Virus record (IMG/VR): IMGVR_UViG_3300025018_000268
Location: 1-40,377 of that record
Source of the DNA: a virus
Taxonomy: Duplodnaviria; Caudoviricetes
Length of the DNA stretch: 40,377 nucleotides
Strand: one strand, 5' to 3'
The position numbers and the translations under genes were made by a program. Positions 12,002 through 40,173 of this stretch are shown here, piece after piece; positions within the stretch are counted from its first letter, which is position 1, and the number at the start of each line of letters is the position of its first letter. The notes below the pieces were generated by a model. That model was not told the origin of the DNA and made no database searches. It was given only the letters and a program-made list of their open reading frames with translations.

Positions 12002-12352
12002 ATGAGAATGTGGATGGTAGAACCTGAGATTTTATGCAGGAAACATCTTCTTGGCGAACATGTGGAGACTCATATGTTTAAGGGAAGTATACAGAGAAAA
12101 AAGAATATCAATGGGTTCATCAATAATAATTTGCTTGAACCCATGAGTTTATTAGATCGTCATGAGCAATTGAAACAAGAGATGATAAACAGAGGCTATA
12201 ATCACAATTCGCCTCTGGTTGATGATTATGATCTTGAATATTTGCCTGATTCTGTGTTGTATTATGAAATTGATAAGGAATCAGCTTTAAAGGATTTAAT
12301 TAAAAGATGTCCTGAGTGTAATAAAAATTATATAGAGAGAAATTCAATATGA
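12002..12352 (+). CDS. denV: Pyrimidine-dimer DNA glycosylase / endonuclease V-like
   Basis: MRMWMVEPEILCRKHLLGEHVE.H and RHEQLKQEMINRGYNHNSPL are typical of this family. Confidence 0.78.
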   Translation: MRMWMVEPEILCRKHLLGEHVETHMFKGSIQRKKNINGFINNNLLEPMSLLDRHEQLKQEMINRGYNHNSPLVDDYDLEYLPDSVLYYEIDKESALKDLIKRCPECNKNYIERNSI

Positions 12353-13473
12353 AAGAAATTATTTTACCACATAAATGTAATTTTCAATTGAATATGTTTG
12401 AAACTGATGCATCCAAAGCCAAGTGCATCATTTGTGGAAAAGGCATTATGGATGATTATGTCCCTGAGCCTCCATCTGAAATCAAACCATTGGAATTTAA
12501 GCGGTACCGAAGTATTCATGACACTGGCTCCCAAAAAGTAATCAATAAAGCATATGAAGAAGGTCTTGATGCCTATTCATGGGTTGCTACAAATAAATAC
12601 CATGGGACAAATTTTTCATTGCTAGCTGATTCCGAAAAGATCCTTGCCTGCTCAAGAAATCAAATTATACCTGAAGGTGAATCACATTTCGGCCATGAAG
12701 TAATGCTGCTTCATCTTAACAAAATAATCAAGGCGATGCAGTCTTATTTTGGTAAGAATATTCAAGTATTCTTTGAGTTGTTTGGTGGATCTTATCCTCA
12801 TCCAGACGTGTCTGTATTGAAAAATTTTTCAAGAGTAGCTAAGGGTGTTTATTACTGTCCATGGATCGACATTAGAGTAATTGATATTAAGGTTGAAGGA
12901 AAATATCTCGATTACGATGAGATGGTTGAAATAGCACTCAGGCACTCTTTGGCAGTAGCGGCATTGATAGCTCGTGGAACATTAGATGAGATGCTTGCAT
13001 TGGATCCAAACTTCGAAGACGAGACATATAAGCATTATAATCTCCCAAAGATTGAAGGCAATATTTCTGAAGGTCTTGTTATAAGACCGACTAAGGATTT
13101 ATATTTCAAGAACGGCGAAAGGGTTATGCTCAAGAAAAAGAGTGAATCTTTTAAAGCTAAGAAAAGAGAGCCTAAAGCCAAGCAACCTGATATTGAACTT
13201 TCTGCTGAAGCTAATGAGATATTCAATGAACTTTCTTCTTATGTAACTGAGGCTAGATTTGATAGTATCATTTCACATGGCGGAAAGTATACCGCAAAGG
13301 ACTTCGGAAAGCTTGTAGGTTTAATGATGTCTGATATTATGGAAGAGGTTGACTTAGGTGATTCTTTTGATTCAATTACTAAGGCAGAAAAGAAGCACAT
13401 AAACCAGCTTTTAATGAAGGAGATTGGTGTCTGTATAAGACCTCTCTTTATAAATTTGGTTTCGGAATTCTAA
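12349..13473 (+). CDS. rnl2: RNA ligase 2 (Rnl2 family)
   Basis: Motif I KYHGTNFS, SRN, FELFGG, EGLVIRP, LKKKSESF, Rnl2-type C-terminal helical domain. Confidence 0.88.
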   Translation: MKEIILPHKCNFQLNMFETDASKAKCIICGKGIMDDYVPEPPSEIKPLEFKRYRSIHDTGSQKVINKAYEEGLDAYSWVATNKYHGTNFSLLADSEKILACSRNQIIPEGESHFGHEVMLLHLNKIIKAMQSYFGKNIQVFFELFGGSYPHPDVSVLKNFSRVAKGVYYCPWIDIRVIDIKVEGKYLDYDEMVEIALRHSLAVAALIARGTLDEMLALDPNFEDETYKHYNLPKIEGNISEGLVIRPTKDLYFKNGERVMLKKKSESFKAKKREPKAKQPDIELSAEANEIFNELSSYVTEARFDSIISHGGKYTAKDFGKLVGLMMSDIMEEVDLGDSFDSITKAEKKHINQLLMKEIGVCIRPLFINLVSEF

Positions 13474-14359: not shown

Positions 14360-14367
14360 TATAAATA
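14360..14367 (+). promoter_or_regulatory. T4-type late promoter
   Basis: TATAAATA, upstream of the first cluster of capsid-targeted ORFs and tRNAs. Confidence 0.65.
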
Positions 14368-14598: not shown

Positions 14599-14934
14599 AT
14601 GAAAAAATTTCAAGAATTCGTGTTGTCTGAAAAAGTGTCCAAATTTGATCCTAATACTGTTTATAAATTGACATCTAAAGTGGATGCAGAGGGTAAAACA
14701 ATTCCTTCTAGGTTTGATTTAAATGCTCCTCTTATGTTTCATGCTAATAAAGGAACTTCCGTTGATTCAGGACTCAAGAAAATCCCAGGCGGTATGTTTG
14801 AATTCATGAAGATAGAAGGTTCTGCTGCGGTTCCCTCTGGTAAAGTTGTAATGCTTACTGCTGGTCAAGTAAAGGACACAGGGAAGAAATTCACCAAAAT
14901 CACTGGAAACACCAAGAAATACGAAATATCATAA
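14599..14934 (+). CDS. Putative internal head protein with capsid-targeting sequence
   Basis: N-terminus MKKFQEFVLSE resembles T4 IPII/IPIII MKTYQEFIAE; Lys-rich body. Confidence 0.72.
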   Translation: MKKFQEFVLSEKVSKFDPNTVYKLTSKVDAEGKTIPSRFDLNAPLMFHANKGTSVDSGLKKIPGGMFEFMKIEGSAAVPSGKVVMLTAGQVKDTGKKFTKITGNTKKYEIS

Positions 14935-14940
14935 TATATT

Positions 14941-15016
14941 GCCGGTATAACTCAATTGGAAGAGTTCCTGATTTGTACTCAGGATGTTGCGGGTTCAAAT
15001 CCTGCTACCGGCTCCA
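14941..15016 (+). tRNA. tRNA-Thr(TGT)
   Basis: Acceptor GCCGGTA/TACCGGC, anticodon arm CCTGA-TTTGTAC-TCAGG, GTTCAAATC, encoded CCA. Confidence 0.93.
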
Positions 15017-15037
15017 ATTATTATTAAAGAGAAACAA

Positions 15038-15295
15038 ATGAAAACATTTTCCGAATTTGGTGCTATTAAAGGCTCAGTGATTGACAGATTAGAAAAATTT
15101 CTTGGTCATCAGCTTAAGCCTGGCATGACAAAAATTGCAGGCTTTCAGGTCAAACTCATTGATGAACATGAACACGGAGATTGGCTTGAATTTGAATTCA
15201 TCAACCAGAAAGATAGAAAGCCTTTTTCTGCTGCTATGAAGAAAGCAGGATTTAAGCTCAAGGCAGTAGGACAGGATGGAATTATTATCTCTTAA
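15038..15295 (+). CDS. Putative internal head protein with capsid-targeting sequence
   Basis: True start ATG 15038 (the track start lies inside the tRNA). MKTFSEF resembles T4 IPI MKTFKEF. Confidence 0.7.
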   Translation: MKTFSEFGAIKGSVIDRLEKFLGHQLKPGMTKIAGFQVKLIDEHEHGDWLEFEFINQKDRKPFSAAMKKAGFKLKAVGQDGIIIS

Positions 15296-15303
15296 AATGA
15301 ATG

Positions 15304-15376
15304 CGCGGGTTCAAGCAGGGCTTGCTCAGGCCTCATAAGCCAGATGCGCTAGGATCGTTACCTAGACCCGCAACCA
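15304..15376 (+). tRNA. tRNA-Met(CAT), atypical initiator-like
   Basis: Acceptor CGCGGGT/ACCCGCA with C1xA72 mismatch, loop CTCATAA, T arm CTAGG-ATCGTTA-CCTAG, CCA end. Confidence 0.75.
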
Positions 15377-15383
15377 AATAAAT

Positions 15384-15433
15384 ACCAACAAGATAAAGTC
15401 ACAGTAATGGTTCATATCCATCTGCTGGTACCA
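15384..15433 (+). ncRNA. tRNA-like minihelix (acceptor plus T arm only)
   Basis: ACCAACA/TGCTGGT-A-CCA and ATGG-TTCATAT-CCAT joined by only about 15 nt. Confidence 0.5.
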
Positions 15434-15454
15434 AATTATAATATAAGGAATTAA

Positions 15455-15649
15455 ATGAAAACATTTAAGACAATTGTATCTGAGTCAAGCTCAGTTCTTC
15501 CTCAGGATATGAAAGAATTTTTTGAGAAACAACTAAAAGCAAAGATACGACAAACAGGCACAGACCCTAAAGATAAGGATGCTGTTACAAAACTCATGAA
15601 AGCAAATATTGAGAGTTGGGCAAAGCTCTGGTTGCATCTAGGTAATTAA
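15455..15649 (+). CDS. Putative internal head protein (paralog of 16577-16729)
   Basis: MKTFKTIVSE tag, then KEFFEKQLK...DPKDKDAV...WAKLWLHLGN. Confidence 0.75.
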   Translation: MKTFKTIVSESSSVLPQDMKEFFEKQLKAKIRQTGTDPKDKDAVTKLMKANIESWAKLWLHLGN

Positions 15650-15666
15650 ATATAATAAGGAATTAA

Positions 15667-16011
15667 ATGAAAACATTTAAGACAATAGTAAAAGAATCAG
15701 TAAATGAAGCTAAGGATGCCTACAAAGTGTATCATGATACATATACTTCCGCCATTCAGGAGGTAGAAAAATTTGTCAAGAGCAAAAAATACATGCTTGA
15801 TAAAGAAGAGATGGCTTCTGAGGTAGGTATGGGCCCCGCAAAGCCTGGAGCAGGAAAAACAAATCGATTTACCCTTCCTTTGTATAAAGAGAAATCAGGT
15901 CAGCAAGAGCCTGTAAAACAGAAGAAAGCAGTTCATTTCCAGATTTACGGCAGGGGCAATACAAAAGACCTGGGTGCTAAGTCCTACGAGTTAAATGTTT
16001 ACATAAGCTAA
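15667..16011 (+). CDS. Putative internal head protein with capsid-targeting sequence
   Basis: MKTFKTIVKESVNEA; RBS and tag DNA identical to that of 15455 over 32 nt. Confidence 0.75.
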   Translation: MKTFKTIVKESVNEAKDAYKVYHDTYTSAIQEVEKFVKSKKYMLDKEEMASEVGMGPAKPGAGKTNRFTLPLYKEKSGQQEPVKQKKAVHFQIYGRGNTKDLGAKSYELNVYIS

Positions 16012-17456: not shown

Positions 17457-18086
17457 ATGAAAGTTGCAGCTAGAAAATTAGAATTACAAAAAATGGCTGA
17501 TTGTGCATCATTAGAGGAAATGTCGTATATGCTATTTTATGCAGCAGGTAAGCGTGGTGTAAAAAACCCATTGGATAAGAGTAAGCTCATTGAAATAATT
17601 TTTGCTGAATTGCTCGGACATGATTTATTCGTAAATGCATCAGGTGGAAAAAATAATTTAGACACCTATGGAGCAGATGCAAAGGATAAAAATGGAATAA
17701 AAGTTGAATATAAATCAAAAACTCTGACAGAACCTCAATATAATGCATGGGTGAATAAAAAATATAAAACTACAGCTTCAATGGTTTATAATGGCGCTTT
17801 TAGTGATGAAAATATATATAAGTATAAAAGTATAAGGCATATACTTTGTTTGCATTATCAGGGTACGCCAGTTGCTGCTATTGAAGTTAATGAGAATTTT
17901 ATCTTATCCACTTTAGAATACAACCTCGAGGAGAGAAAGAAAAAACTTCAATTACCTGGAGCAAAACCAAAAACAACAAATGCCAGTACAGTTTATATAA
18001 AGTTTTCTGCAAATACGCCAACAGAAGGAAAAATCATATATGATTCAAATGTTAGATTGCCTGGAGTATCTCAGTTCTATAAATGA
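17457..18086 (+). CDS. Putative type II restriction endonuclease (PD-(D/E)xK)
   Basis: E...GADAKD...VEYKS active-site pattern; overlaps a DNA methyltransferase gene. Confidence 0.65.
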   Translation: MKVAARKLELQKMADCASLEEMSYMLFYAAGKRGVKNPLDKSKLIEIIFAELLGHDLFVNASGGKNNLDTYGADAKDKNGIKVEYKSKTLTEPQYNAWVNKKYKTTASMVYNGAFSDENIYKYKSIRHILCLHYQGTPVAAIEVNENFILSTLEYNLEERKKKLQLPGAKPKTTNASTVYIKFSANTPTEGKIIYDSNVRLPGVSQFYK

Positions 18087-23794: not shown

Positions 23795-23807
23795 AATTAG
23801 AAAAAAG

Positions 23808-23911
23808 AAAAGGAATGTCAATTTAATTGTTGACATTCCTTTTTTTATTTGTTATACTCTTTATATAAGATTGATTGTGAGACAAAAAATAAATTCTGTG
23901 AGGAGAGTAAA
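23808..23911 (+). promoter_or_regulatory. Terminator hairpin fused to an early promoter cassette
   Basis: 14-bp inverted repeat AAAAGGAATGTCAA/TTGACATTCCTTTT whose 3' arm begins with the -35 box (23830); TATACT 23853. Confidence 0.82.
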
Positions 23912-24430
23912 ATGTTTAAAGCTGAAGTTGATGATGTAATACAATTCATTGTTGATAGCAATCGTGTAAAATCCGAATTAGGTAAGAATTTCTTTCTTTT
24001 AGATTCAGGAGTCACTCAGAAGGAGGCTTTGTATATCAAATTTGAGGTCAGAGTAAGAGACTTTAAAGCGAAAGGCGATAGAATTATCCGTGATGAAGAA
24101 CTTTCTTGCCCTGTACATATGATCTTTTTCGGCGATACAAGTGTGTTTTTCTATGCTGATAAAAATCTTGAATGTAGTGACATTCCTTCTCCTGAATTGT
24201 TCGTCAATACATCAAATCATAATTCTTGTTGGCGAAGTGATGGCTTCAGTAAATTAAATGAATTGTATTTTGATATGTGTGAAGAAATAAACCCAAAGAT
24301 GGATCCTGATAATTTAGAATCATATGTGAATTTTTCATTTGTTTCCATGAAAAAAGTTGATGTTACTTATGCTTCTGCTGAAGATTATGGTTGTAATCTT
24401 TTAAGCATTACAAAAAAGGAGGTTGAATAA
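23912..24430 (+). CDS. Hypothetical protein
   Basis: ATG 23912 follows GAGGAG; the track start at 23849 lies inside the promoter. Confidence 0.7.
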   Translation: MFKAEVDDVIQFIVDSNRVKSELGKNFFLLDSGVTQKEALYIKFEVRVRDFKAKGDRIIRDEELSCPVHMIFFGDTSVFFYADKNLECSDIPSPELFVNTSNHNSCWRSDGFSKLNELYFDMCEEINPKMDPDNLESYVNFSFVSMKKVDVTYASAEDYGCNLLSITKKEVE

Positions 24431-24431
24431 T

Positions 24432-25607
24432 ATGGAAAGAGTTGTGATACATACGAATCACCCAATTAAATTATGGGTTGGTGATGATTTTGAACACGAG
24501 GCATTACAGCAAGCAATCAATGTTGCCAATCTTCCTGATATCTTTCGGCATGTAGCAATTATGCCTGATGCGCATATGGGAATGGGGGTGCCAATTGGTT
24601 GTGTTTTTGCTACTCAAAAAACCGTTGTCCCTAATGCTGTTGGTGTGGATATTGGTTGTGGTATGACTGCTGTTAAATTACCTGTTACAGAATGGCAAAT
24701 CCGTGAGGCAGCAACCGTAATCATCAATGATATTCATCAATCAGGAATTCTTTCTGTTCGTCAGCAGAATCCAATGTTTGATTTACAATATTATCTTAAA
24801 AAACCCTGTACTGACTTTGTGAATTTACATTTGGGCAATGCAGTAAATCAATTAGGAACCTTAGGTGGCGGGAATCATTTCATTGAATTCCAAAGAGACC
24901 ATAATAATGATATATGGTTGATGATACATTCAGGTTCCAGAAATCTAGGACAGAAAATTGGTGTTGAGTATAACATGATTGCTGAGGACCTGAATGAAAG
25001 ATATTTCTCTTCTGTCCATACATCCCATAAATTGGCATTTCTTCCTTTGGATTCTGAGGAAGGAAAGAATTATATCAAGGACATGAATTTTGCAGTTGCA
25101 TACGCAAAGGCAAACAGGAGAACGATTATCATGACCATTCTTGATATACTGGAAAAGATTTATCCTGATGTGTCAAAAGTTGATTTCGATGATGATTCAA
25201 TCAATTCAACTCATAATTTCGCAAGACTGGAATATCATTTCGGACATAATGTGATGGTTCATCGTAAAGGTGCCACTTTCGCTGGTTCAGGAGAGATTGG
25301 TTTAATTCCAGGGTCTCAAGGAACATGCTCTTACATTGTTGAAGGAAAAGGAAACAGAGATTCATTTGATTCCTGTTCTCATGGAGCTGGCAGAAAGTAT
25401 TCAAGAACCAAAGCAAGAACTACACTTGATCTTGATTACGAGCAATTATTTATGGATGAACAGAACATAATCCATAATATGACTTCAGTATCAAATTTAG
25501 ATGAGGCTGCTGGTGCCTATAAAGATATTGATGAGGTAATGACATTACAGCAAGACCTTGTTAGTATCACTCATAAACTTTCACCTATTCTTGTTGTCAA
25601 AAACTAA
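24432..25607 (+). CDS. rtcB: RtcB 3'-5' RNA ligase
   Basis: MPDAHMG, GVDIGCG, LGTLGGGNHFIE, HSGSR, HN, VHRKGAT, SCSHGAGR, DEAAGAYKDI. Confidence 0.97.
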   Translation: MERVVIHTNHPIKLWVGDDFEHEALQQAINVANLPDIFRHVAIMPDAHMGMGVPIGCVFATQKTVVPNAVGVDIGCGMTAVKLPVTEWQIREAATVIINDIHQSGILSVRQQNPMFDLQYYLKKPCTDFVNLHLGNAVNQLGTLGGGNHFIEFQRDHNNDIWLMIHSGSRNLGQKIGVEYNMIAEDLNERYFSSVHTSHKLAFLPLDSEEGKNYIKDMNFAVAYAKANRRTIIMTILDILEKIYPDVSKVDFDDDSINSTHNFARLEYHFGHNVMVHRKGATFAGSGEIGLIPGSQGTCSYIVEGKGNRDSFDSCSHGAGRKYSRTKARTTLDLDYEQLFMDEQNIIHNMTSVSNLDEAAGAYKDIDEVMTLQQDLVSITHKLSPILVVKN

Positions 25608-29393: not shown

Positions 29394-29457
29394 AGAGAGG
29401 TGTCAAGTATTATTTGACACCTCTCTCCTTTTGTGTTATTATTACATCTTATAAATA
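29394..29457 (+). promoter_or_regulatory. gp43 terminator hairpin fused with a sigma70 promoter, plus late promoter
   Basis: 13-bp stem AGAGAGGTGTCAA/TTGACACCTCTCT; -35 at 29414, TATTAT at 29437; TATAAATA 29450-29457. Confidence 0.8.
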
Positions 29458-29501: not shown

Positions 29502-29642
29502 ATGAGAAAAATAAAGATCAATAAAACCAAAATAAAAATAAGATACCCTATCCCTGGGCCTAACAAGGTCACTATAGATAAATCTAAATATTGCAGAACA
29601 CAAAAACATAAAAATGAAAACATACAAAGAATTTATTCTTGA
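29502..29642 (+). CDS. Small highly basic protein (46 aa)
   Basis: GAGGA RBS; MRKIKINKTKIKIRYPIPGPNKVTIDKSKYCRTQKHK. Confidence 0.55.
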   Translation: MRKIKINKTKIKIRYPIPGPNKVTIDKSKYCRTQKHKNENIQRIYS

Positions 29643-30357
29643 GGCTGGCCAGCAATTTGAGAGGCAAGAAAATAGCTTCATTATGTCCGTCAATGATGCT
29701 GTGCTGAAGAACAACGGCAAACCCATTGCATTACATTCAACCCATGCAACCATAAAGAATGTACTCAAGGCAGAGAAATTCACAGGAAGACAATCTTCTG
29801 GCTCTGAACCATATACTGATGTACAACTTATTACTTCTTCAGGCCATGTCAATCTGTCAATGAAAGGTCCAACAGCTCCATCATTAGCAGGAGGTGGCTT
29901 GAGAGGCCTTGAGATTATCATCCCAGGACTAGGCACTAGATTCTTTCGGGCTGTTCATGACCGTCTCATAAAGACAGGACATAAGCTTGGCGATAAAGTT
30001 CCTGATCAATATGGCATTCTCTCTTTTAAAGATAAAGAATTGATTGTTGTTGGTAATGCTGCTATGGGTGGACCGATTGATTACATGTACATAGGGCCAA
30101 TGGAAGTGAAATCAAAATACATTAGTGGTTCTCTTACTGTAAATGGTAAATTGATTGCTGCTATGGAATACGCCAAATCAAAGGATCTTTATTTTAGATT
30201 ACGAGCAAGAAGAGCTGACCAAACATTTGATCCTCATGCCTCTGATAAAAACGGTGTGCCTAAAATATATGGCAAATCTCCATCGAAGGGTGATACTGCA
30301 GGAAGGTTAGTTGTTACTGACAAACCTACCAAAGCAAGCAACCTTATAAAATTCTAA
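29614..30357 (+). CDS. Capsid-targeted protein, possible PD-(D/E)xK-like nuclease
   Basis: MKTYKEFILEA tag; E...PYTDV...NLSMK pattern. Confidence 0.6.
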   Translation: MKTYKEFILEAGQQFERQENSFIMSVNDAVLKNNGKPIALHSTHATIKNVLKAEKFTGRQSSGSEPYTDVQLITSSGHVNLSMKGPTAPSLAGGGLRGLEIIIPGLGTRFFRAVHDRLIKTGHKLGDKVPDQYGILSFKDKELIVVGNAAMGGPIDYMYIGPMEVKSKYISGSLTVNGKLIAAMEYAKSKDLYFRLRARRADQTFDPHASDKNGVPKIYGKSPSKGDTAGRLVVTDKPTKASNLIKF

Positions 30358-30370
30358 TGCAAGAACCTAA

Positions 30371-30814
30371 ATGAAAACATTTAAGCAAATAGTAGATGAG
30401 GCAAAAATAGTGGGACATATCAATCTCCCGAAAGAAGCACCAAAGAAAGAAGGAGAAGTATCAAAGAAGGAATTGGATGCTCTTGAGAAAATCCTTGATG
30501 CTTTGTTCAAACATGCAGGGCTGGATATAGAATTTACTCGACATTTCCTGGATAGAGTAAATGACAAGAGAAACATCAAGCAAATTGATATACCAGAATT
30601 ACAAAAGCTCTTTGTCAAGACACACCAAAAATATACTGATGCCTTGAAAAAGATGCCGGACAGTGCTGAAGCTGTGCTCAATGACATACAGACTGATATC
30701 AATCTTCCCTTCGTTATCAAATGGAATCCAAAATCAAAGATGATGGAATTGGTTTCTAAAACAGTAATGCGTAAACGGAATTTTAATACCCCGGACAAAA
30801 AACTGAAGGTATAA
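30371..30814 (+). CDS. Capsid-targeted protein, RegB/RelE-fold RNase-like
   Basis: MKTFKQIVDEA tag; KHAGLDIEFTRHFLDR...ID...LF resembles T4 RegB KAAG..HLKYSQHLLDR..ID....LF as recalled. Confidence 0.55.
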   Translation: MKTFKQIVDEAKIVGHINLPKEAPKKEGEVSKKELDALEKILDALFKHAGLDIEFTRHFLDRVNDKRNIKQIDIPELQKLFVKTHQKYTDALKKMPDSAEAVLNDIQTDINLPFVIKWNPKSKMMELVSKTVMRKRNFNTPDKKLKV

Positions 30815-30816
30815 GG

Positions 30817-31380
30817 ATGAAAAGTTTTACAGAATACCTCCTGGAATTATCATTACAGAAAGCTGATAATTTCCAAAAAAACGCACATCAAGGGCAAACA
30901 AGAAAAACAAGCGGAGAACCTTATTCAGTGCATCCAACAGCTGTGTATCAATTTCTTGTAAGCCTAGGCATTAAGGACAGGAATCTTCTTGTTGCTGCTT
31001 ATCTGCATGATACCATCGAGGACTCTCCTACTTCATTCAATGACATCAAGAAAGAATTCAACCAAGATGTTGCAAGAATAGTCAAGGCATTGTCAAGCTC
31101 TGATAAAGGGATTCAAGCATTAGGCAAAGCATCATACCTAGCAAAGAAGATGATAGCAATGGATCCTGATGTGCTTGTCATTAAGTTAGCTGATCGGTGG
31201 CACAATACCACCGATATGAATTCATTACCTAAGGATAAAGCAGAAAAATATATGGCACAAACTGATTACATCATCCAGGAATTAGAATCCTCAAGAAGAT
31301 TGAATAAAACTCATAAGAAAATCATCAAGCAGATTGAAAAAAATATGAAAAATTCTGGATACAAGACAATAACCGTATAA
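30817..31380 (+). CDS. Capsid-targeted HD-domain small alarmone hydrolase (Mesh1/SpoT-HD like)
   Basis: MKSFTEYLLE tag; AH.GQTRK.SGEPY..HP, AAYLHDTIEDS, IKLADRWHN. Confidence 0.88.
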   Translation: MKSFTEYLLELSLQKADNFQKNAHQGQTRKTSGEPYSVHPTAVYQFLVSLGIKDRNLLVAAYLHDTIEDSPTSFNDIKKEFNQDVARIVKALSSSDKGIQALGKASYLAKKMIAMDPDVLVIKLADRWHNTTDMNSLPKDKAEKYMAQTDYIIQELESSRRLNKTHKKIIKQIEKNMKNSGYKTITV

Positions 31381-31420
31381 TTGCTCACTAATATTAGTTG
31401 TGTTACTGTGTAAAAATATG

Positions 31421-31496
31421 TTGACAAGAACAGAAAATAATGTTATACTCTTTATATAAGATTGATTGAGATAAAAATAAATTACTGAGGAGTGAA
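31421..31496 (+). promoter_or_regulatory. Repeated early promoter/leader/RBS cassette
   Basis: TTGACA-17-TATACT, exact 22-nt core at 31441-31462, GAGGAG. Confidence 0.85.
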
Positions 31497-32669
31497 ATGA
31501 AACAGCTTAAACATTTGGATCATATTGAAGATTTGTTATTGATGAAAGGCTCTGAAGGATTGAATAGGGCTTTGTATATTTGCGAGCGCATGATTTCGGA
31601 GCCTAAGAGTCATAAAGTAAGCGTAAAAATTGATGGTGCTCCTTCTGTGATTGCTGGATGGAATCGATACAGCGAATTCTTTGTTGCTACAAAGAGCTTA
31701 TTCAATAAAACGCCAAAGGTAAATTACTCTATTGAGGATATACAAAAAAATCATGGACATGCTCCTGGCCTAGAAAACAAATTGGTTTATGCTCTGACAT
31801 ATTTCAAAGATATTATCCCTCAAGGAAGAATCTTTCAAGGCGATATCCTTTTTACTGCTATGGATGTGCATTCTTTTATTGATGATGAAGGCTGTTATGT
31901 GTCAATAAAACCGAATACAGTAGAATACAGAACAAGAGACCGAAAAATAATTGATACAGTCAAATATGCTAAAATAGGTGTTGTCTGGCATACTGAATAC
32001 ATTGGTCAATCTTTTGATGATTTAGAGGCGATGATTTCATCGGATGTGTCTTGTATCAAATCAAATGAAAATGTTTACATTGCCAAGTCCGATTTCATTG
32101 ATAAATTTGGAAAATCTCGATTTAATGAAATGGAAGAGGCTGGTCTCTTTGCATATGTCAATGCCATTGAAATGAAGATGCAACGGTTGAAAGAAAATAA
32201 TAATAGGATTGATGAAATCTTTAATGAAAAATCGGAAATTTCTGACCTGGCAATGCAATTCATCAATGCAAGGTTACGAGAAGGTAAAGTATTCGTCAAC
32301 AAGGAAGAAAGTCTTCTGGAGTTTGTCAATTTCACAAGATATAAATATAATAAAGTAAAATTGATAAGTAAATCCGCTATTGATGCAAATGAACAGAAAT
32401 ACATGAATCTTTATTCATTCATAATGTATTCACTAGGAGTAAGGCAATGCATCATGGAAGTATTTGAGCTTCATTACTGGTTGCAGTGCCTCAAGCAAAG
32501 ATTGATTGAAAAATTAAATCTCCCTACGAAGGATTACAAATGGAAATGTTTTATCGATGGGTCTCCTTCTAATCATGAAGGCTTTGTTGTGACAAACAAT
32601 TTTTCTTCTGTAAAGTTTGTTGATCGTATGGAGTTTTCAAGAGCAAATTTTAATAACAGTAGGTTCTAA
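31497..32669 (+). CDS. Conserved T4-like phage protein (DUF6267-like) with ligase-type nucleotidyltransferase motifs
   Basis: HLDHIEDL, KIDGAP (KxDG), FQGDILF, HEGFVV, KFVDRMEFSRANF. Confidence 0.7.
   Translation: MKQLKHLDHIEDLLLMKGSEGLNRALYICERMISEPKSHKVSVKIDGAPSVIAGWNRYSEFFVATKSLFNKTPKVNYSIEDIQKNHGHAPGLENKLVYALTYFKDIIPQGRIFQGDILFTAMDVHSFIDDEGCYVSIKPNTVEYRTRDRKIIDTVKYAKIGVVWHTEYIGQSFDDLEAMISSDVSCIKSNENVYIAKSDFIDKFGKSRFNEMEEAGLFAYVNAIEMKMQRLKENNNRIDEIFNEKSEISDLAMQFINARLREGKVFVNKEESLLEFVNFTRYKYNKVKLISKSAIDANEQKYMNLYSFIMYSLGVRQCIMEVFELHYWLQCLKQRLIEKLNLPTKDYKWKCFIDGSPSNHEGFVVTNNFSSVKFVDRMEFSRANFNNSRF
32340..32347 (+). promoter_or_regulatory. Intragenic T4-type late promoter
   Basis: TATAAATA about 325 nt upstream of three consecutive capsid-targeted ORFs. 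Confidence 0.5.
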
Positions 32670-32671
32670 TA

Positions 32672-33118
32672 ATGCTTTCATTTACTGAATTTTTGATTGA
32701 AGGGATGAACATCAAAGTAAACAAGAAGGAAATAGAAATCACTAAACCTTCAAGAGCAGCGAAGGATACTCTTGTTGTTCTTGATGTTGCTAATTTTGAT
32801 AAGGCATACAAATCAATTGCACTCAAGCAAGGCTTTTATATAGGTAAAAAAGGATCAGGTGGCATTTCTGGCAGATATAAAAGATTTGGATTATTTGTCA
32901 TGGGAGGGAAGGAAGAAATCGAACCTGGGTTCGATATTGATCATGAACCTGCTAAATCCATAGAAGCCGCTGAAGTTTCTGTCAATGACAAGGGTGAAAT
33001 TCAATTTACCAATGGTCGACATCGATATGCATGGTTAAGAGATAATAATGCATCGAAAATAATTGTTGCAATGGATAAAGAATCTGTGTATAATGCCAGA
33101 AAGTACAAATACATTTGA
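32672..33118 (+). CDS. Capsid-targeted ParB/Srx-fold-like protein
   Basis: MLSFTEFLIEG tag; IQFTNGRHRYAWL matches the (D/N)GxHR motif. Confidence 0.68.
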   Translation: MLSFTEFLIEGMNIKVNKKEIEITKPSRAAKDTLVVLDVANFDKAYKSIALKQGFYIGKKGSGGISGRYKRFGLFVMGGKEEIEPGFDIDHEPAKSIEAAEVSVNDKGEIQFTNGRHRYAWLRDNNASKIIVAMDKESVYNARKYKYI

Positions 33119-33134
33119 TTATATAGAGGTAAAC

Positions 33135-33740
33135 ATGCTTTCATTTTCTGGATTCAAGACAGTAGGATTAATCAACGAAGTAAAATCAAGCAAGGCTGCC
33201 GTGATTACTTTCGGTAGATTCAACCCAATAACCTCAGGTCATGAAAAGGTTGTCAATACTGTTTTACAATGGGCCTCAAGTAAAAGAGCTGATGCTCTTA
33301 TTTTTCCTTCTCAATCAGAGGATCCAAAAAAGAATCCTCTGCTGTATAAGGACAAAGTCAAATACATGAAGCAACTCTTTCCGAAAGCAAAGATTATAAA
33401 TGACCTGAGCGTAAAAAATGTTTTCTATGCGTTGAAAATGTTATCAGCGGCTGGATATAAAGATGTTACTCTTGTTGTCGGTTCAGATAGAGTAGAGGAA
33501 TTTGATGCTCAAATAAGAAAATACATCAAGCATCCAGATGCAACAAAGTCTTATGATTTTGATAATTTTAAGGTGATAAATGCAGGCGAGAGAGAAGGTG
33601 CGATATCAGCCTCATTAATGAGACAGTACGCAAAGGATGATGATTTTGAATCATTCAAGAAAGGTCTTCCCTCAACAGCTACAAAAAGTATTGCAAGTGC
33701 AATTTTTAAGGATGTCCGAAAGGGCATGAAAATAACATAA
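33135..33740 (+). CDS. Cytidyltransferase-like (HxGH-superfamily) nucleotidyltransferase with tag-like N-terminus
   Basis: TFGRFNPITSGHEK, KNPL, VVGSDR, ISASLMR; ATG 33135 follows GAGGT. Confidence 0.85.
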   Translation: MLSFSGFKTVGLINEVKSSKAAVITFGRFNPITSGHEKVVNTVLQWASSKRADALIFPSQSEDPKKNPLLYKDKVKYMKQLFPKAKIINDLSVKNVFYALKMLSAAGYKDVTLVVGSDRVEEFDAQIRKYIKHPDATKSYDFDNFKVINAGEREGAISASLMRQYAKDDDFESFKKGLPSTATKSIASAIFKDVRKGMKIT

Positions 33741-33756
33741 CATTAAGGAAAACAAA

Positions 33757-34080
33757 ATGAAAAGTTTCAAACAGTATTCAATCGATGAAGCCACTATGAC
33801 TGATTACGAATTGGCTGTGTATCCAGACAAAGTGAAGTTTACTAAGGATGGCAATGTATCTTCTTATTCATTGATCATGAAGATGGAAGGCGGAAAAAAG
33901 ACTACTGTTGTTAAGGATGCAAAATTGGAAAGAGCCATTATTAGTTTCCTTGGTGATGATGACATCAAAACTTCTCTTGCTGTTAACCCAGAAGCAGGTG
34001 TGTATGATGTGGAAGTTTATCAGGATGCAAAGGGAATGTATATTGAATTAGGTTCCAAAAAAGTTTATTTCAAAGGATAA
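33757..34080 (+). CDS. Putative internal head protein with capsid-targeting sequence
   Basis: MKSFKQYSIDEA. Confidence 0.72.
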   Translation: MKSFKQYSIDEATMTDYELAVYPDKVKFTKDGNVSSYSLIMKMEGGKKTTVVKDAKLERAIISFLGDDDIKTSLAVNPEAGVYDVEVYQDAKGMYIELGSKKVYFKG

Positions 34081-34699: not shown

Positions 34700-35407
34700 A
34701 TGAAGCTAATAAAAAGTATTATTACCCTTTCCTTAATTGGAATGTTAATGACAGGATGTTCTGGCGCAGGCGGGATGGTCCCGATATCGGATCAAATGGT
34801 TTCAACCACAACAGGAGCAATGACAAGCCAGCTTGGATACATTACTGATGCTTCTGCTATGAAAGAAAAGTTTGTGCATGATTCTCTACAAAACAGAGAC
34901 AAGATGATTGCTATGGCTCATACCACTGACGGCTTTCATATGTCATTTGAGCTTGTAGAAGTTGCGCCTGGAGTAAAAGCATTACTCCCTAAGGACATTT
35001 CGTATAAAGAGCAAGCAAGATTTGACCAAGTTCTGCCTACTGCGCCTTCAATTCATCCTGGTTGGAAAACAGCTGAGGTCTTAGGAAAAGCTGCTATCAA
35101 TGGTACTGTTATTGGCCTTGGTATTAATGCTGCCTCTGATATCATTAGTGAAGGTATAGCGGCATCAAGGAGTAATGTAAACACAAACACAACTACCACA
35201 TCGATTGATAATTCAGTAGGACCTGTTGATAGTTCTAGGGTCAATACCATTACTGACAATTCTTCTGTTGATAATTCTGTCGGACCAGTGGATAATTCAT
35301 GGGCTGATAATTCCTCAAGACCAGTGGATAATTCTGTCGGTCCTGTTGACAATTCAATTGGTCCAGTTGATAACACCAATAACAGCACTGTTCCTATTGT
35401 GGAGTAA
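34700..35407 (+). CDS. Lipoprotein with C-terminal DNSVGPV repeats
   Basis: Lipobox LMTGC; repetitive Asn/Ser/Thr/Asp tail. Confidence 0.75.
   Translation: MKLIKSIITLSLIGMLMTGCSGAGGMVPISDQMVSTTTGAMTSQLGYITDASAMKEKFVHDSLQNRDKMIAMAHTTDGFHMSFELVEVAPGVKALLPKDISYKEQARFDQVLPTAPSIHPGWKTAEVLGKAAINGTVIGLGINAASDIISEGIAASRSNVNTNTTTTSIDNSVGPVDSSRVNTITDNSSVDNSVGPVDNSWADNSSRPVDNSVGPVDNSIGPVDNTNNSTVPIVE
35206..35376 (+). repeat. Degenerate coding repeats (DNS[V/I]GPV units)
   Basis: GATAATTC(A/T)GT(A/C)GG(A/T)CC(A/T)GT recurs with synonymous changes. Confidence 0.8.
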
Positions 35408-35660: not shown

Positions 35661-37724
35661 ATGGCTGAAAATGATTTAATTTTGGCGCCTGAAACAGTTA
35701 CCAAAGGCACAGCTGAAACTAATTTTATACGTTCACAAGCAAGATTAGATGAAATAAATGGTATTGCTTCTGGTGCTGATACAAAGGCAGATAATGCTCT
35801 TGCTTTATTTGAAGATTCTGGGTATCCAAATATTAAACCGTCTTTGCTGTTGAACTTTGCAGCAACCAAGAGCCTCGATCCAAGGATTACTTTTACTAGG
35901 GCTTCAGAGGCCACTTACCTCAATGATAAAGGATTGCTGTCCTATGCTGCTGTTGACGAGCCAGTGTTCGACCATGATCCGGTTACAGGAGAGTGCAAGG
36001 GGTTGGGGATATGGGAGGCTCGGACTAATCTGCTGAAATACTCTGAGGACTTCAGCAATGCTGTTTGGCAAAAGACTGCAACAGGACTAGCTTCATTACC
36101 TCAAGTTAGCCTCAATTATGGGACTGCTCCTGATGGTACTCTTACTGCCACTAGGGTTGATCTCTCTATAAATGGTGGAACTACAACTACAGACAACTGC
36201 TATATTATGTACACTGCAGATTTATCCGTAGTTGGGCAACCAACTTTGTGCAGCGTCTTTTTAAAGACCGTTGATGGTTCTACCAAGACACTGCGTTTTG
36301 ATTTTAATGGCTCTACTGCTGACATAGCACCCTTTAACGTACCCCTTCTGACTGTTACAGGGAAGTGGCAGAGATTTACTATTGGTTTAAGTTCAGCCAT
36401 TGATACACAGAGAAGATTCGCATTAAGGCTTAGAGGTTCATTGGGTACTTCAGATAGTGCATCAGTATTGGTATGGGGAGCAACCCAGGAGAATAATGTA
36501 ACCTTCCCAACTCCCTATATCCCATCAACTGAAACATTCACTTCAAGAGCATCCACAGCGACCTACATTGGTTCTGATGGACTGATAAAGATTGCTGCTA
36601 GTAATGCACCAAGGATGCAATATACTCCTGATAATTTGGGGTTAAGACCTAAGCTGTTGCTGGAAGGTGCCAGTACTAATCTACTTACTTACTCTGAGCA
36701 GTTTGATAATGCTGGCTGGACTAAGGCGAGAGCATCTATAACACCTAATGTTATACTTGCTCCCGATGGTACCTTGACTGCTGATAAATTGGTGGAAGAT
36801 ACTTCAGCTTCTACAAGTCACTACATTAGACATTCACCCACTTTATCTGGCACTACAACTCACACTTTCACTATCTTTGCCAAAAGTGCTGGCCGCCATA
36901 TTAATATCACAACATTTGGCTCTAACGGATGGATTGTCTCAAAGACCGTTATAGTTAATCTTATAGACGGATCTTACACGGGTGAAGGAGTGGTAGAGCA
37001 TTTACCTGGAGGCTGGTTTAAAATATCTCTTACCAATACTACAGGTGCAGAAACCAAGGCTTATGCTATAGATGTACTTCTTTCAAGTGTCGGAGATGAG
37101 TTCTTCACAGGTGATGGTACTTCAGGCATCTACCTATGGGGTGCCCAACTAGAACAATCCCCATACCCAACCTCCTACATCCCCACAACCTCAGTGGCAG
37201 TAACTAGAGCAGCGGATGTAAGCTCCAGTGCTGCAACTACACGAGCTGCTGATATTGCTCAGATGACAGGGAGTAACTTCAGTGATTGGTATAGGCAGGA
37301 CGAGGGGAGCTTTGTTTGTAAGTATCAACTTGATTACAAACTAGGGGCAAGTAGGGTTCTTTCAGTAGGGACTGCAGATGCATATATGGAACTTATATCA
37401 GCAACAGGGGCGACAGCTGATGTGGGGAACGGCGGGTACCTGTATGGTAAATCTGATGGTGTGGTGGGATCAATAGCCACGAGTGGTATCCTTAATGTTG
37501 CTTTAGCAATTCGCCATGTTGCTTTTGGTTATAAAAAGGATGACTTTGCCTCATCTGTCAATGGCATAACTGCTAAGGTTGATACAACAGGAAGTGTTCC
37601 TCCAGTTGATAGACTAAGGTTTACAAATAACGTGGGAGAGGCCTTGCTTTGTGGCCACATAGCTTACCTAGCCTACTACCCGAAACGCATCTCTAACACT
37701 GAACTTCAAGTAATCACTCAATAA
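35661..37724 (+). CDS. Virion fibre/spike protein with duplicated carbohydrate-binding-like modules
   Basis: Two copies of FT.RAS.ATY / E...TNLL.YSE.F.NA.W.K / APDGTLTA / WGA..E...PT.YIP; LamG-like C-terminus. Confidence 0.72.
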   Translation: MAENDLILAPETVTKGTAETNFIRSQARLDEINGIASGADTKADNALALFEDSGYPNIKPSLLLNFAATKSLDPRITFTRASEATYLNDKGLLSYAAVDEPVFDHDPVTGECKGLGIWEARTNLLKYSEDFSNAVWQKTATGLASLPQVSLNYGTAPDGTLTATRVDLSINGGTTTTDNCYIMYTADLSVVGQPTLCSVFLKTVDGSTKTLRFDFNGSTADIAPFNVPLLTVTGKWQRFTIGLSSAIDTQRRFALRLRGSLGTSDSASVLVWGATQENNVTFPTPYIPSTETFTSRASTATYIGSDGLIKIAASNAPRMQYTPDNLGLRPKLLLEGASTNLLTYSEQFDNAGWTKARASITPNVILAPDGTLTADKLVEDTSASTSHYIRHSPTLSGTTTHTFTIFAKSAGRHINITTFGSNGWIVSKTVIVNLIDGSYTGEGVVEHLPGGWFKISLTNTTGAETKAYAIDVLLSSVGDEFFTGDGTSGIYLWGAQLEQSPYPTSYIPTTSVAVTRAADVSSSAATTRAADIAQMTGSNFSDWYRQDEGSFVCKYQLDYKLGASRVLSVGTADAYMELISATGATADVGNGGYLYGKSDGVVGSIATSGILNVALAIRHVAFGYKKDDFASSVNGITAKVDTTGSVPPVDRLRFTNNVGEALLCGHIAYLAYYPKRISNTELQVITQ

Positions 37725-37736
37725 TAAGAGGATAAG

Positions 37737-38072
37737 ATGAAACAATACTGTCTAAAATTCACAGATGAAGCACAAGCCAAGGAAGCACTGAAAGATTATG
37801 TTTCCACTAATCAATGGCTCGATGAAATACCAGTAGGTTCTTGGTTGACCAGTAGTAAAGACCACGCACTAGATATAGTAGGAGTGATCCATAAAGCTAC
37901 AGGTGTAACCCTTATAGATACAGAAGGTAATGAATACCCTGAAATGGCACCACTGGAAGGCTTTCATGCCAACCTTGCGGTTGATACTCTTCCTGTTGAA
38001 CTGGAAGAATACGTAGTAATACCTGAGACACCTTCAAGAGTATTTGCAGGGATGGAGATGAACAATGAGTAA
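37737..38072 (+). CDS. Fibre-associated protein / assembly chaperone
   Basis: LDIVGVI.KATG...EGFHANL...P.TPSRVFAG; directly follows the fibre gene. Confidence 0.6.
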   Translation: MKQYCLKFTDEAQAKEALKDYVSTNQWLDEIPVGSWLTSSKDHALDIVGVIHKATGVTLIDTEGNEYPEMAPLEGFHANLAVDTLPVELEEYVVIPETPSRVFAGMEMNNE

Positions 38073-39720
38073 ATTAATAGGAACAAATCCAAACCAGATA
38101 TCAACTAATAGTATGCTCAGTGAGACTGCCTTTATGACGCCTGGAGCAATAGCAAATCTTATAACCTCACTTGAACCCGCCCTAGGGAAGATTCCTATAG
38201 CTGGTACTGACGGATTAATAGATATTAAATGGATAAGGCAGTTCTCCAACGATATTGGTAATCCGGGGAGTCAGGGTTTTGGTGTAGGAATATGTCCGAG
38301 TGAGCTACCTGCTGGTATGACTACCATGACAGGAACCCTAGATGTAGCATCTGGCAATTATGGCAACTATCAGTATTCCGATGGTTCAATCATGTGCTGG
38401 ATTCCAGCTTTTTATTATCTCTACGGTGACGGCACAAACGGTCTGGCGGTCAATATGGTTGATATCAAACCATACAGTACCTATGACTCCGTAGCATCAG
38501 CTAATACGGCAGGATATGCCCTGCACCGGGCATTTTATGATGGAGGGGTTATTCAGCCAGGATTCTTTGTCGATAAATATCTGGCTTCGAACAATGGCGG
38601 TATTGCGTCGTCCATCAAAAATGGTGCACCGCTCAGTACGCACGCTGATCACAATCCTCTCTCTGGTTTGACGGGTGCGCCACCAAATTTTTACTATGGG
38701 GCATTTGCCGCTAGCAAGACTAGGGGCGCTGAATTCTTCCCGAAGAGCCTGTTCATCAATTCAGCACTGGCCTTGCTGTCACTAGCCCACGGACAGGCAG
38801 CTACAGCCACGACATGGTGTGCATGGTACGATGCTGCTGGAATAACAAATTTCCCCAAGGGTTGCAATAACAACGCTCTTGGTGACTACAATGATGTCAC
38901 AATATCCTACACATCGGATGGGTACCCCAACTGCGGTCTGACTGGCTCTGGATTACCTTTTGCAAAGACCACGCATAACGGTCAGGCGTGTGGTGTTGCC
39001 GACCTCAATGGCAATATGTACGAAATCTCTCCTGGATTGACATGTGTTGCACCGCTGACAAATATTACCGGGGCTACCCAGGCAAATCCATGTGTCTTGA
39101 CAGTCGTCGGCCACAGTGTGCAGGCTGGTGACTACGTCACGGTACGTTTCATAGGCGGCATGACGCAGCTCAATGATAGGATCTACACTGCGACGGTAAT
39201 AGACGCAAATACAATATCACTGGACGGAGTTGACTCCACTGGCTTTACCGCCTACTCATCTGGTGGGAACATTCTGGCCGGTACGTTCAAGGTCATCAAG
39301 CCGACCGTTGCACTAAAAAACATTACCGGCGGCAACACCGTAGACACAGATCATTGGGGTACTGCTGGTCTGGCTGCCAACTTTAACGATGTCAATGTCA
39401 AACTTGCTACCACATACCCGAACAACGGTTTTGCGCAGAAATTCGGCAGCGGTGGCAACCAGGTGCTCTCCCCGACAGTTACCGGAAACGACTGGACGCT
39501 CACTGGTTTGGGTTTCCCGATTGCGGGTGGCGTCAGCATATCAGGCTCAAACCTGTTCGGTGTGGATTATTTTTATCAGCATATGCTGCAGGACATGTGT
39601 CCGATTGCGGGTGGCCACTGGCCCAACGGCGGTAGCGCTGGGGTGTGGATGCTGACTCTGAGCTCTGTGCGCGGGAGCTCGAACAGCGGCGCTGGTTTTC
39701 GTTCAGCCCTATATCTCTAA
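38065..39720 (+). CDS. Receptor-binding fibre with FGE-sulfatase/C-type-lectin (Mtd-like) fold
   Basis: FFVDKY, GVADLNGNMYE, C-terminal GGHW...AGVW.L.L...R..SN...GFRSA; inserted beta domain ITGATQANPCV...AYSSGG. Confidence 0.75.
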   Translation: MSKLIGTNPNQISTNSMLSETAFMTPGAIANLITSLEPALGKIPIAGTDGLIDIKWIRQFSNDIGNPGSQGFGVGICPSELPAGMTTMTGTLDVASGNYGNYQYSDGSIMCWIPAFYYLYGDGTNGLAVNMVDIKPYSTYDSVASANTAGYALHRAFYDGGVIQPGFFVDKYLASNNGGIASSIKNGAPLSTHADHNPLSGLTGAPPNFYYGAFAASKTRGAEFFPKSLFINSALALLSLAHGQAATATTWCAWYDAAGITNFPKGCNNNALGDYNDVTISYTSDGYPNCGLTGSGLPFAKTTHNGQACGVADLNGNMYEISPGLTCVAPLTNITGATQANPCVLTVVGHSVQAGDYVTVRFIGGMTQLNDRIYTATVIDANTISLDGVDSTGFTAYSSGGNILAGTFKVIKPTVALKNITGGNTVDTDHWGTAGLAANFNDVNVKLATTYPNNGFAQKFGSGGNQVLSPTVTGNDWTLTGLGFPIAGGVSISGSNLFGVDYFYQHMLQDMCPIAGGHWPNGGSAGVWMLTLSSVRGSSNSGAGFRSALYL

Positions 39721-39735
39721 ACCAAAGGAATCAAA

Positions 39736-40173
39736 ATGACTAAGATACTAAGTTATATAAAGGTAACCGATCAGCATACAACATATACGCTCTTTACCGA
39801 GGAAGGCTGTACTGAGCTGTGTACCCTAGATGGTACAACCTATGTTGCTGTGCCGGATGGCGTGGAACTTCCTTCTCAACCAGAACAGATAGCCGCTAGT
39901 ATTCAGGAGGTTGTTGTTACCCCGGAACTTAACGTAGCCATCAAAGAAGCATCTCCTCATGCGCGCCTTATCAGTAAGTGCATCATAGATAAAATACGTG
40001 AGCGATACACTGTGGATCATGAGCTGTACCTAGCGCGTATAGGGGTGGGTGCGGCAACAGGTATGTATACACCAACACCAGAGGAGATGACTGAACTGAG
40101 CGAGTTTGGCGTCTTTGTTGAAGGGACGCGGCAATGGGGCAGGGATGAAAGGGCTAAGCTAGGGTTATCGTGA
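39736..40173 (+). CDS. Fibre-associated hypothetical protein
   Basis: AAGGA RBS; KIRERY..D.E and C-terminal ERAKLGL; follows the CLec-fold fibre gene. Confidence 0.65.
   Translation: MTKILSYIKVTDQHTTYTLFTEEGCTELCTLDGTTYVAVPDGVELPSQPEQIAASIQEVVVTPELNVAIKEASPHARLISKCIIDKIRERYTVDHELYLARIGVGAATGMYTPTPEEMTELSEFGVFVEGTRQWGRDERAKLGLS

What the first reader, a model, noticed from the sequence alone, without database searches (positions are those of the whole stretch)
29614..34080. Late enzyme block that may disarm host nucleotide signalling on entry
Right after gp43 there is a contiguous run: nuclease-like (29614), RegB/RelE-like (30371), HD alarmone hydrolase (30817), KxDG ligase-type nucleotidyltransferase (31497), ParB/Srx-like (32672), HxGH nucleotidyltransferase (33135) and an unknown (33757). 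Six of the seven carry the capsid tag. All recognisable folds act on nucleotides or nucleic acids. Inference: a co-delivered module that makes, transfers or destroys nucleotide signals or cofactors, or AMPylates host targets. I know of no described system with this composition.
Basis: partly seen in the sequence, partly recalled or inferred. Interest (0 to 1): 0.82.

Follow-up and report, generated by a model that had tools for sequence, protein, structure and literature searches.

The report
Capsid-cargo island around nuclease-ligase core
A T4-like phage keeps a widespread, unstudied trio of genes (a predicted DNA-cutting enzyme, a predicted strand-sealing enzyme and a predicted adenylyltransferase) among extra genes such as a likely alarm-signal hydrolase; six carry a head-loading tag and are likely injected, but the sealing enzyme has no tag and is likely made early in infection.

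Summary
All seven genes are real. Folds are supported for five: MspI/HinP1I-like nuclease (29614), alarmone hydrolase (30817), RNA-ligase-like DUF6267 (31497), ParB/PFIN (32672) and HIGH adenylyltransferase (33135). RegB/RelE for 30371 was not confirmed. Six carry a T4-type capsid leader; that of 33135 is degenerate.

It is not one late signalling module. DUF6267 has no tag here and follows a copy of this phage's repeated sigma-70-type promoter.

Nuclease, DUF6267 and cytidyltransferase form a widespread core: DUF6267 directly follows the nuclease in 50 of 77 loci, and the transferase lies within 2.5 kb of DUF6267 in 31 of 48. 30371 is often fused to the core. The hydrolase, ParB-like gene and 33757 are accessory; one contig of a close relative lacks the ParB-like gene.

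Best reading: a capsid-cargo island on a nucleic-acid cut-and-seal core, with only the hydrolase fitting 'disarm signalling'. This scan has already noted the DUF6267 ligase fold and tagged hydrolases on other DNA. The nuclease link and the untagged, early-promoter DUF6267 are what this window adds. No activity was measured.

The parts
29394..29426 (+). Terminator-like hairpin after gp43, overlapping a second sigma-70-like match (29414-29442)
29450..29457 (+). T4-type late promoter motif TATAAATA upstream of 29614 (motif recalled from T4)
   Evidence: gp55-type late sigma gene at 1207
29614..30357 (+). A: tagged PD-(D/E)xK nuclease, MspI/HinP1I/HhaI-like fold; core gene
   Evidence: E16, E19, D69, S82, K84 invariant in 42 of 42; D follows within 120 bp in 50 of 77 loci
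30371..30814 (+). B: tagged conserved domain of unknown fold (invariant H58, R62, D65, R67); frequent fusion partner of F and D
   Evidence: F in 26 of 80 loci, 20 fused; D in 21, 3 fused
30817..31380 (+). C: tagged small alarmone hydrolase (HD_4), motifs intact; accessory
   Evidence: absent from 168 core loci and 80 B loci
31421..31470 (+). Extended sigma-70-type (likely early) promoter in front of D
   Evidence: 6 copies of the long motif in the window; the other 5 are intergenic in 17-27 kb
31497..32669 (+). D: DUF6267, RNA-ligase-like covalent nucleotidyltransferase fold; untagged here; core gene
   Evidence: K44, D46, G47, G115, D116, E361, G362, K373, R377 invariant in 58 of 58
32340..32347 (+). 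Possible internal late promoter for E, F, G (single 8-mer inside D; may be chance)
32672..33118 (+). E: tagged ParB/Srx-fold PFIN-like domain; accessory
   Evidence: skipped by one contig of a relative
33135..33740 (+). F: HIGH-family adenylyl/cytidylyltransferase, degenerate tag; core gene
33757..34080 (+). G: tagged protein of unknown function

Best explanation
The block is a cluster of likely head-loaded proteins built on a widespread three-gene core that likely cuts and re-seals nucleic acid, and it is likely not one dedicated signal-disarming module.

Shown: gene order, linkage in relatives, tags, promoter motifs, folds and intact motifs.

Inferred working: late in infection A, B, C, E, G and probably F are loaded into the prohead by their leaders, clipped at the xxE site and injected into the next cell. 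A would cut or nick DNA (host or rival), leaving ligatable ends. D would adenylylate its Lys44 and seal nicks, most plausibly in phage nucleic acid; in this phage it is likely made early instead of carried. F would adenylylate a small phospho-metabolite (NMN is the usual guess). C would hydrolyse (p)ppGpp or (p)ppApp on its own. E would act as a separate NTPase/DNase. Confidence is about 0.7 for the island-plus-core layout and about 0.3 for the specific cut-and-seal chemistry.
For: Core is widespread: D in 443 and F in 558 of 50,697 phage records (many near-identical).

Linkage: D follows A within 120 bp in 50 of 77 loci; F lies within 2.5 kb of D in 31 of 48. D and F are fused in PHROG 455, a S-PM2 model and loci L032, L045, L050. 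A nuclease-like motif occurs in 20 of 54 large ORFs directly upstream of D against 6 of 420 elsewhere. A and a D-like gene are adjacent even in the jumbo phage PA5oct.

End-processing partners: HAD phosphatase within 3 kb of D in 32 of 148 loci; P-loop kinase domain in 17 of 54 F tails.

Accessory status: C, E and G absent from 168 loci; a relative's contig joins 32668 to 33135; E's relatives lie in large polyvalent or MuF proteins.

Packaging: T4 targeting depends on residues 4 and 7 (PMC9026906 passages); tagged F relative in S-CREM2 virions.

Early D; its 85% relative is also untagged.
Against: No activity, substrate, transcript or virion data exist for this phage. Fold scores are middling (Z 7-8). 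D's best matches are RNA ligases while A is DNase-like, so a shared substrate is not shown. Only 18 of 84 A relatives are tagged against 117 of 143 D relatives, the reverse of this window, which fits loose co-location as well as partnership. F occurs far from D in S-CREM2 and without a detectable D in phAPEC6. A and D are unlinked in Sf-FS3. The motif used was written after seeing the sequences and has some spurious hits. Loci are redundant and were not corrected for kinship.
Confidence: 0.55

Rival explanations
1. One reading: one co-delivered late module that makes, transfers or destroys nucleotide signals or cofactors, or AMPylates host proteins.
For: C has intact alarmone-hydrolase motifs. 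F resembles NadD/NadM/PPAT. In jumbo phage G010 an F-like gene, a B gene and a ParB+HD+CCA polyprotein are adjacent, so this mix recurs. D's acceptor is unknown and could be a protein.
Against: D is untagged with an early-type promoter. C, E and G are missing from 168 core loci. E is skipped in a relative. The most constant neighbour is a DNase-fold protein.
Confidence: 0.15
2. D is simply the phage's replication ligase, replacing gp30, and the neighbours are unrelated cargo.
For: 8 of 11 complete or near-complete D-bearing genomes (PA5oct counted) lack a PF01068 ligase, and 0 of 19 records have an NAD-dependent one. Cyanomyoviruses lack g30 (PMC2984593 passages). An early promoter suits a replication role.
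Against: DLP_6, PA5oct and G010 carry both D and a gp30-type ligase. No OB-fold domain is seen in the model. Most D relatives are tagged. The first look of the genome search can miss divergent ligases.
Confidence: 0.12
3. The core is an RNA/tRNA repair kit (ligase with phosphatase and kinase) against host ribonucleases; A is a hitch-hiker.
For: Best folds are Rnl2/Rnl5/Trl1. HAD and kinase partners are common. The window has 10 tRNA genes. Such kits are described in jumbo phages (PMC7824862 section 3.4.9).
Against: This phage already encodes Rnl1 and RtcB and has no HAD or kinase in the block. The tight link to a DNase fold and the role of F are left unexplained.
Confidence: 0.13
4. F and D form an NAD cycle: D uses NAD+ as AMP donor and F regenerates it from NMN, or F alone counters NAD depletion.
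For: D-F adjacency and fusion. F's best NCBIfam hit is NadD at E 9e-6.
Against: F is far below all NMNAT cut-offs. ATP-dependent RNA ligases outrank LigA in the fold search (LigA Z 4.8).
Confidence: 0.05

Closest known systems
T4 internal proteins IPI-III and Alt with the capsid targeting sequence (PMC9026906, passages read; PMC12373910, abstract and outline)
   Same: Leader with aromatic residues 4 and 7 and an xxE site; variable cargo; more tagged small genes near tRNA genes in this window.
   Different: Cargo here is enzyme-fold proteins unrelated to IPI-III; packaging is not shown for this phage.
Cyanomyovirus DUF6267 (PF19782, phrog_455) plus 'cytidyltransferase' (phrog_395/3041)
   Same: Same two families, same order, with a nuclease-like gene upstream as in S-CAM9, DLP_6 and Melnitz.
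   Different: Here split by insertions; D has its own early-type promoter; F lacks the long tail. No paper in the library names DUF6267.
Polyvalent proteins of phages (PMC5512222, passages read)
   Same: A pool of co-injected conflict domains including ParB-like ones; E's relatives occur in LPD38, MuF and ART-PolyVal proteins.
   Different: Separate tagged genes instead of one polypeptide; I saw no mention of the A-D-F core in the passages read.
ATP-dependent RNA ligases Rnl2/Rnl5 (T4 Rnl2, Naegleria 5cot)
   Same: Adenylyltransferase fold; ordered KxDG, GD, EGxV and K motifs (motif labels recalled).
   Different: 12-14% identity; long helical insert; own conserved N-terminal His/Glu segment; substrate unknown.
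Small alarmone hydrolases, including phage HD-alarmone enzymes (PMC7824862 section 3.4.8; PMC10083569 passages)
   Same: Stand-alone Rel-type HD domain with intact motifs.
   Different: Carries a capsid leader; preference for ppGpp or ppApp not determined.

Membership tests
T4-type internal proteins | N-terminal targeting leader | tested here: met
   Five clear, F degenerate, D none; rule
T4-type internal proteins | Late transcription | tested here: inconclusive
   TATAAATA at 29450 and 32340; early-type promoter before D; no RNA data
T4-type internal proteins | Presence in virion, cleavage by gp21, ejection | not testable with these tools
   Only indirect: tagged F relative in S-CREM2 virions; PA5oct A and D-like genes not marked
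DUF6267 (D) | Pfam PF19782 over cut-off | tested here: met
   271.5 bits against 27
Ligase-type covalent nucleotidyltransferases (D) | Fold and ordered catalytic motifs | tested here: met
Rnl1/Rnl2 RNA ligase families (D) | Family profile match | tested here: not met
   No such Pfam or PHROG hit; no PDB sequence match
Rnl1/Rnl2 RNA ligase families (D) | RNA ligation | not testable with these tools
   needs assay
PD-(D/E)xK nucleases (A) | Fold with invariant D and K in the core | tested here: met
   Z values middling but most top rows are this superfamily
Type II restriction-modification system (A) | Adjacent cognate methyltransferase and specific cutting | tested here: inconclusive
   No adjacent MTase; one lies at 18040
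Small alarmone hydrolases (C) | Stand-alone Rel-type HD domain with catalytic motifs | tested here: met
Small alarmone hydrolases (C) | (p)ppGpp/(p)ppApp hydrolysis | not testable with these tools
   needs assay
HIGH nucleotidyltransferases (F) | T/HxGH motif and PF01467 over cut-off | tested here: met
   23 bits against 21; G35, H36 invariant
NadD/NadM/NadR NMNAT (F) | Equivalog cut-off | tested here: not met
   25.9 against 112; 19.5 against 341; 13.5 against 181
ParB/Srx, PFIN (E) | Profile match and GxHR motif | tested here: inconclusive
   19.5 bits against 27 for E itself; 3 relatives over cut-off; motif in 148 of 149 relatives
RegB/RelE (BECR) RNases (B) | Fold or profile match | tested here: inconclusive
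   No hit; no model of my own was folded

The most novel reading that the evidence does not exclude
A large group of aquatic T4-like and jumbo phages carries an undescribed 'cut-and-seal' system: a fast-evolving restriction-type nuclease paired with a new ligase family (DUF6267) and an adenylyltransferase, delivered in the capsid or made at once on entry. It could be the missing means by which these phages degrade host DNA and seal their own, since many lack gp30.
Probability: 0.3. Interest if true: 0.8.

Novelty: new variant of a known kind. Interest (0 to 1): 0.5.

Why it matters
DUF6267 and its partners are in hundreds of cultured phages and, by the tool's estimate, thousands of viral contigs, yet no paper in the library names the family. 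A review notes that cyanomyoviruses lack g30 and leaves their route of host-DNA degradation open. The nuclease-DUF6267 link gives direct assays for both questions. This phage also suggests cargo can move between 'carried' and 'made early' by losing a tag and gaining a promoter.

Tried and rejected
A single-sequence locus search with D found nothing; the alignment worked. Foldseek against PDB gave no match at E<=0.001 for D or A. Profile searches of PDB sequences for D, A and B gave nothing usable. E has no match in cultured phages. G: no family and a poor Atlas model; its ATP-grasp rows are under TM 0.5 and were rejected. RegB/RelE for B was not found. The D-F complex prediction never ran because the queue was full, so binding is untested. 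No RNA holder was listed. Parts without cover in the laid runs were not read as absence. A longer contig of the same phage (L257, identical over 12,444 bases) could not be searched as a whole, so whether this phage has gp30, gp21 or gp23 is open. General promoter counts were at chance level; only the extended repeated motif was used. Literature searches; subscription papers and supplements were not seen, and the supplements of PMC7824862, PMC9503650 and PMC5512222 may list these families.
Full report
Setting. The window is a 40-kb fragment, 22% complete, of a T4-like phage. It holds gp55, gp46/47, gp45/44/62, RegA, Rnl1, a DNA methyltransferase, RtcB and gp43 and 10 tRNA genes. I call the seven genes A (29614), B (30371), C (30817), D (31497), E (32672), F (33135) and G (33757).

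What each gene is. A folds (pLDDT 86.6) like the restriction enzymes MspI, HinP1I and HhaI (Z 7.6, 6.7, 6.5), with D69, S82 and K84 invariant in 42 of 42 aligned relatives. C is a stand-alone Rel-type HD hydrolase with its motifs intact. D is DUF6267; its model (pLDDT 92.7) matches RNA ligases best (5cot Z 8.3, rmsd 4.0, 185 aligned; T4 Rnl2 Z 7.4), and the ligase-type motifs are invariant in 58 of 58. E is ParB/PFIN-like on weak direct and stronger indirect evidence. F is a HIGH-family transferase below every NMNAT cut-off. B is a conserved domain whose RegB/RelE label I could not confirm. G is unknown. The structural scores are middling; they agree with the motifs but show no function.

The tag. 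T4 targeting rests mainly on residues 4 and 7, and processing on 8 and 10 (PMC9026906, passages). A matrix trained on leaders of D relatives ranks C, E, A, G and B among the top eight of 61 window genes, together with three small genes at 14599, 15455 and 15667. All eight beat the best of 203 internal Met positions. F is marginal and D negative. 'Six of seven' holds if F's displaced site is accepted.

The block is not one late unit. A TATAAATA site precedes A, B and C. In front of D lies a sigma-70-type promoter sharing a long motif with five other intergenic sites in the 17-27 kb region, with no copy on the other strand. That D is made early is my inference from this motif. D's 85% relative is also untagged, whereas 117 of 143 D relatives in viral loci are tagged.

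Core and accessory genes. D and F have matches in 443 and 558 of 50,697 phage records, mostly cyanomyoviruses. Of 80 loci found with A, 77 had at least 300 bases downstream; D starts within 120 bp in 50 and within 1.5 kb in 57. Of 80 loci found with D, 48 had at least 2.5 kb downstream; F lies within 2.5 kb in 31. Other nuclease-like families fill the same slot: a motif occurs in 20 of 54 large ORFs directly upstream of D against 6 of 420 elsewhere (motif written after inspection). In PA5oct an A relative abuts a 446-residue gene with D-like motifs; my D profile did not detect that gene, so the assignment rests on the fold hit and motifs. B is tied to the core: of 80 B loci, 26 hold F (20 fused) and 21 hold D (3 fused), and Atlas clusters show the same fusions. 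C, E and G were found in none of 168 loci. One contig of a relative about 85-88% alike joins the end of D to the start of F, skipping E (single contig, depth 4.55). E's relatives sit in large polyvalent proteins of unrelated phages. These loci are redundant and uncorrected for kinship.

What the partners suggest. A HAD phosphatase lies within 3 kb of D in 32 of 148 loci, and 17 of 54 non-redundant F tails scanned (of 56 picked) carry a P-loop kinase domain. Nuclease, phosphatase, kinase and ligase are the parts of end-processing systems (PMC7824862 sections 3.4.8 and 3.4.9 read). F is unexplained by that reading. A jumbo phage (G010) has an F-like gene, a B gene and a polyprotein with HD, CCA-adding and nucleotidase domains and a ParB-like motif side by side, so the same pool of cargo domains is reshuffled across phages.

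Packaging evidence from other phages. In S-CREM2 the tagged F relative was detected in virions (3 peptides, 11.2% coverage); D lies 65 kb away and is not in that table; the authors note contamination is possible (PMC10665884, section 18 and passages). In PA5oct the A and D-like genes are not marked as detected while 9 of 14 neighbours shown are. Packaging is therefore plausible for tagged copies and not general for the core.

Is D the missing DNA ligase? Eight of 11 complete or near-complete D-bearing genomes lack a gp30-type ligase, but DLP_6, PA5oct and G010 have both, and none of 19 records has an NAD-dependent ligase. A review confirms that cyanomyoviruses lack g30. The idea is neither shown nor excluded.

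Mechanism I commit to. A capsid-cargo island grown around a nuclease-ligase-adenylyltransferase core. The tagged proteins are likely injected; A likely cuts DNA; D likely seals nicks and is here likely made early; C likely removes alarmones independently. Layout, linkage, tags and folds are shown; delivery and all chemistry are inferred.

Novelty. The kind is known (T4 internal proteins, polyvalent proteins), and the D-F pair is old and common. DUF6267 is named in no paper of the library; other searches showed no description of the trio in listings or the passages read. The scan has reported the DUF6267 ligase fold and tagged hydrolases on other DNA. In the notes I saw, the tight nuclease link and the untagged early-promoter state were not mentioned. 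Verdict: new variant of a known kind, interest 0.5.

Noticed in passing
window 14599-16011: Three or four more small tagged ORFs (14599, 15455, 15667; 15038 degenerate) lie among tRNA genes, behind a TATAAATA site at 14360.
   Followed up: partly
window 15295-15370: A tRNA-like stretch ending in CCA after the 15038 ORF (seen output) that ARAGORN did not list.
   Followed up: no
window 12349-13473 and 24423-25607: The phage has both Rnl1 and RtcB besides D: three ligase-type enzymes in 40 kb.
   Followed up: no
window 23805-23858 and 29394-29442: Hairpins whose arms contain the TTGACA hexamer of the next promoter-like site; terminator and promoter overlap.
   Followed up: no
window 35661-40173: Tail-type genes with GC rising from about 35% to 50%, suggesting recent acquisition.
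   Followed up: no
window 34700-35407: Lipoprotein-like ORF with C-terminal repeats of a short DNSVGPV unit; no family hit.
   Followed up: no
L176:7777-14066 (G010): F-like gene, B gene and a 1216-residue polyprotein (ParB-like motif, HD, CCA-adding, NT5C) in a 342-kb phage.
   Followed up: partly
L005:5537-8674 and L023:1734-3788: F fused to a RimK-like ATP-grasp domain, in L023 with a RimK-associated protease domain.
   Followed up: no
L171:4477-5528: In Asteriusvirus phAPEC6 a minimal F stands beside a Dam methyltransferase and no D was detected in the genome.
   Followed up: partly
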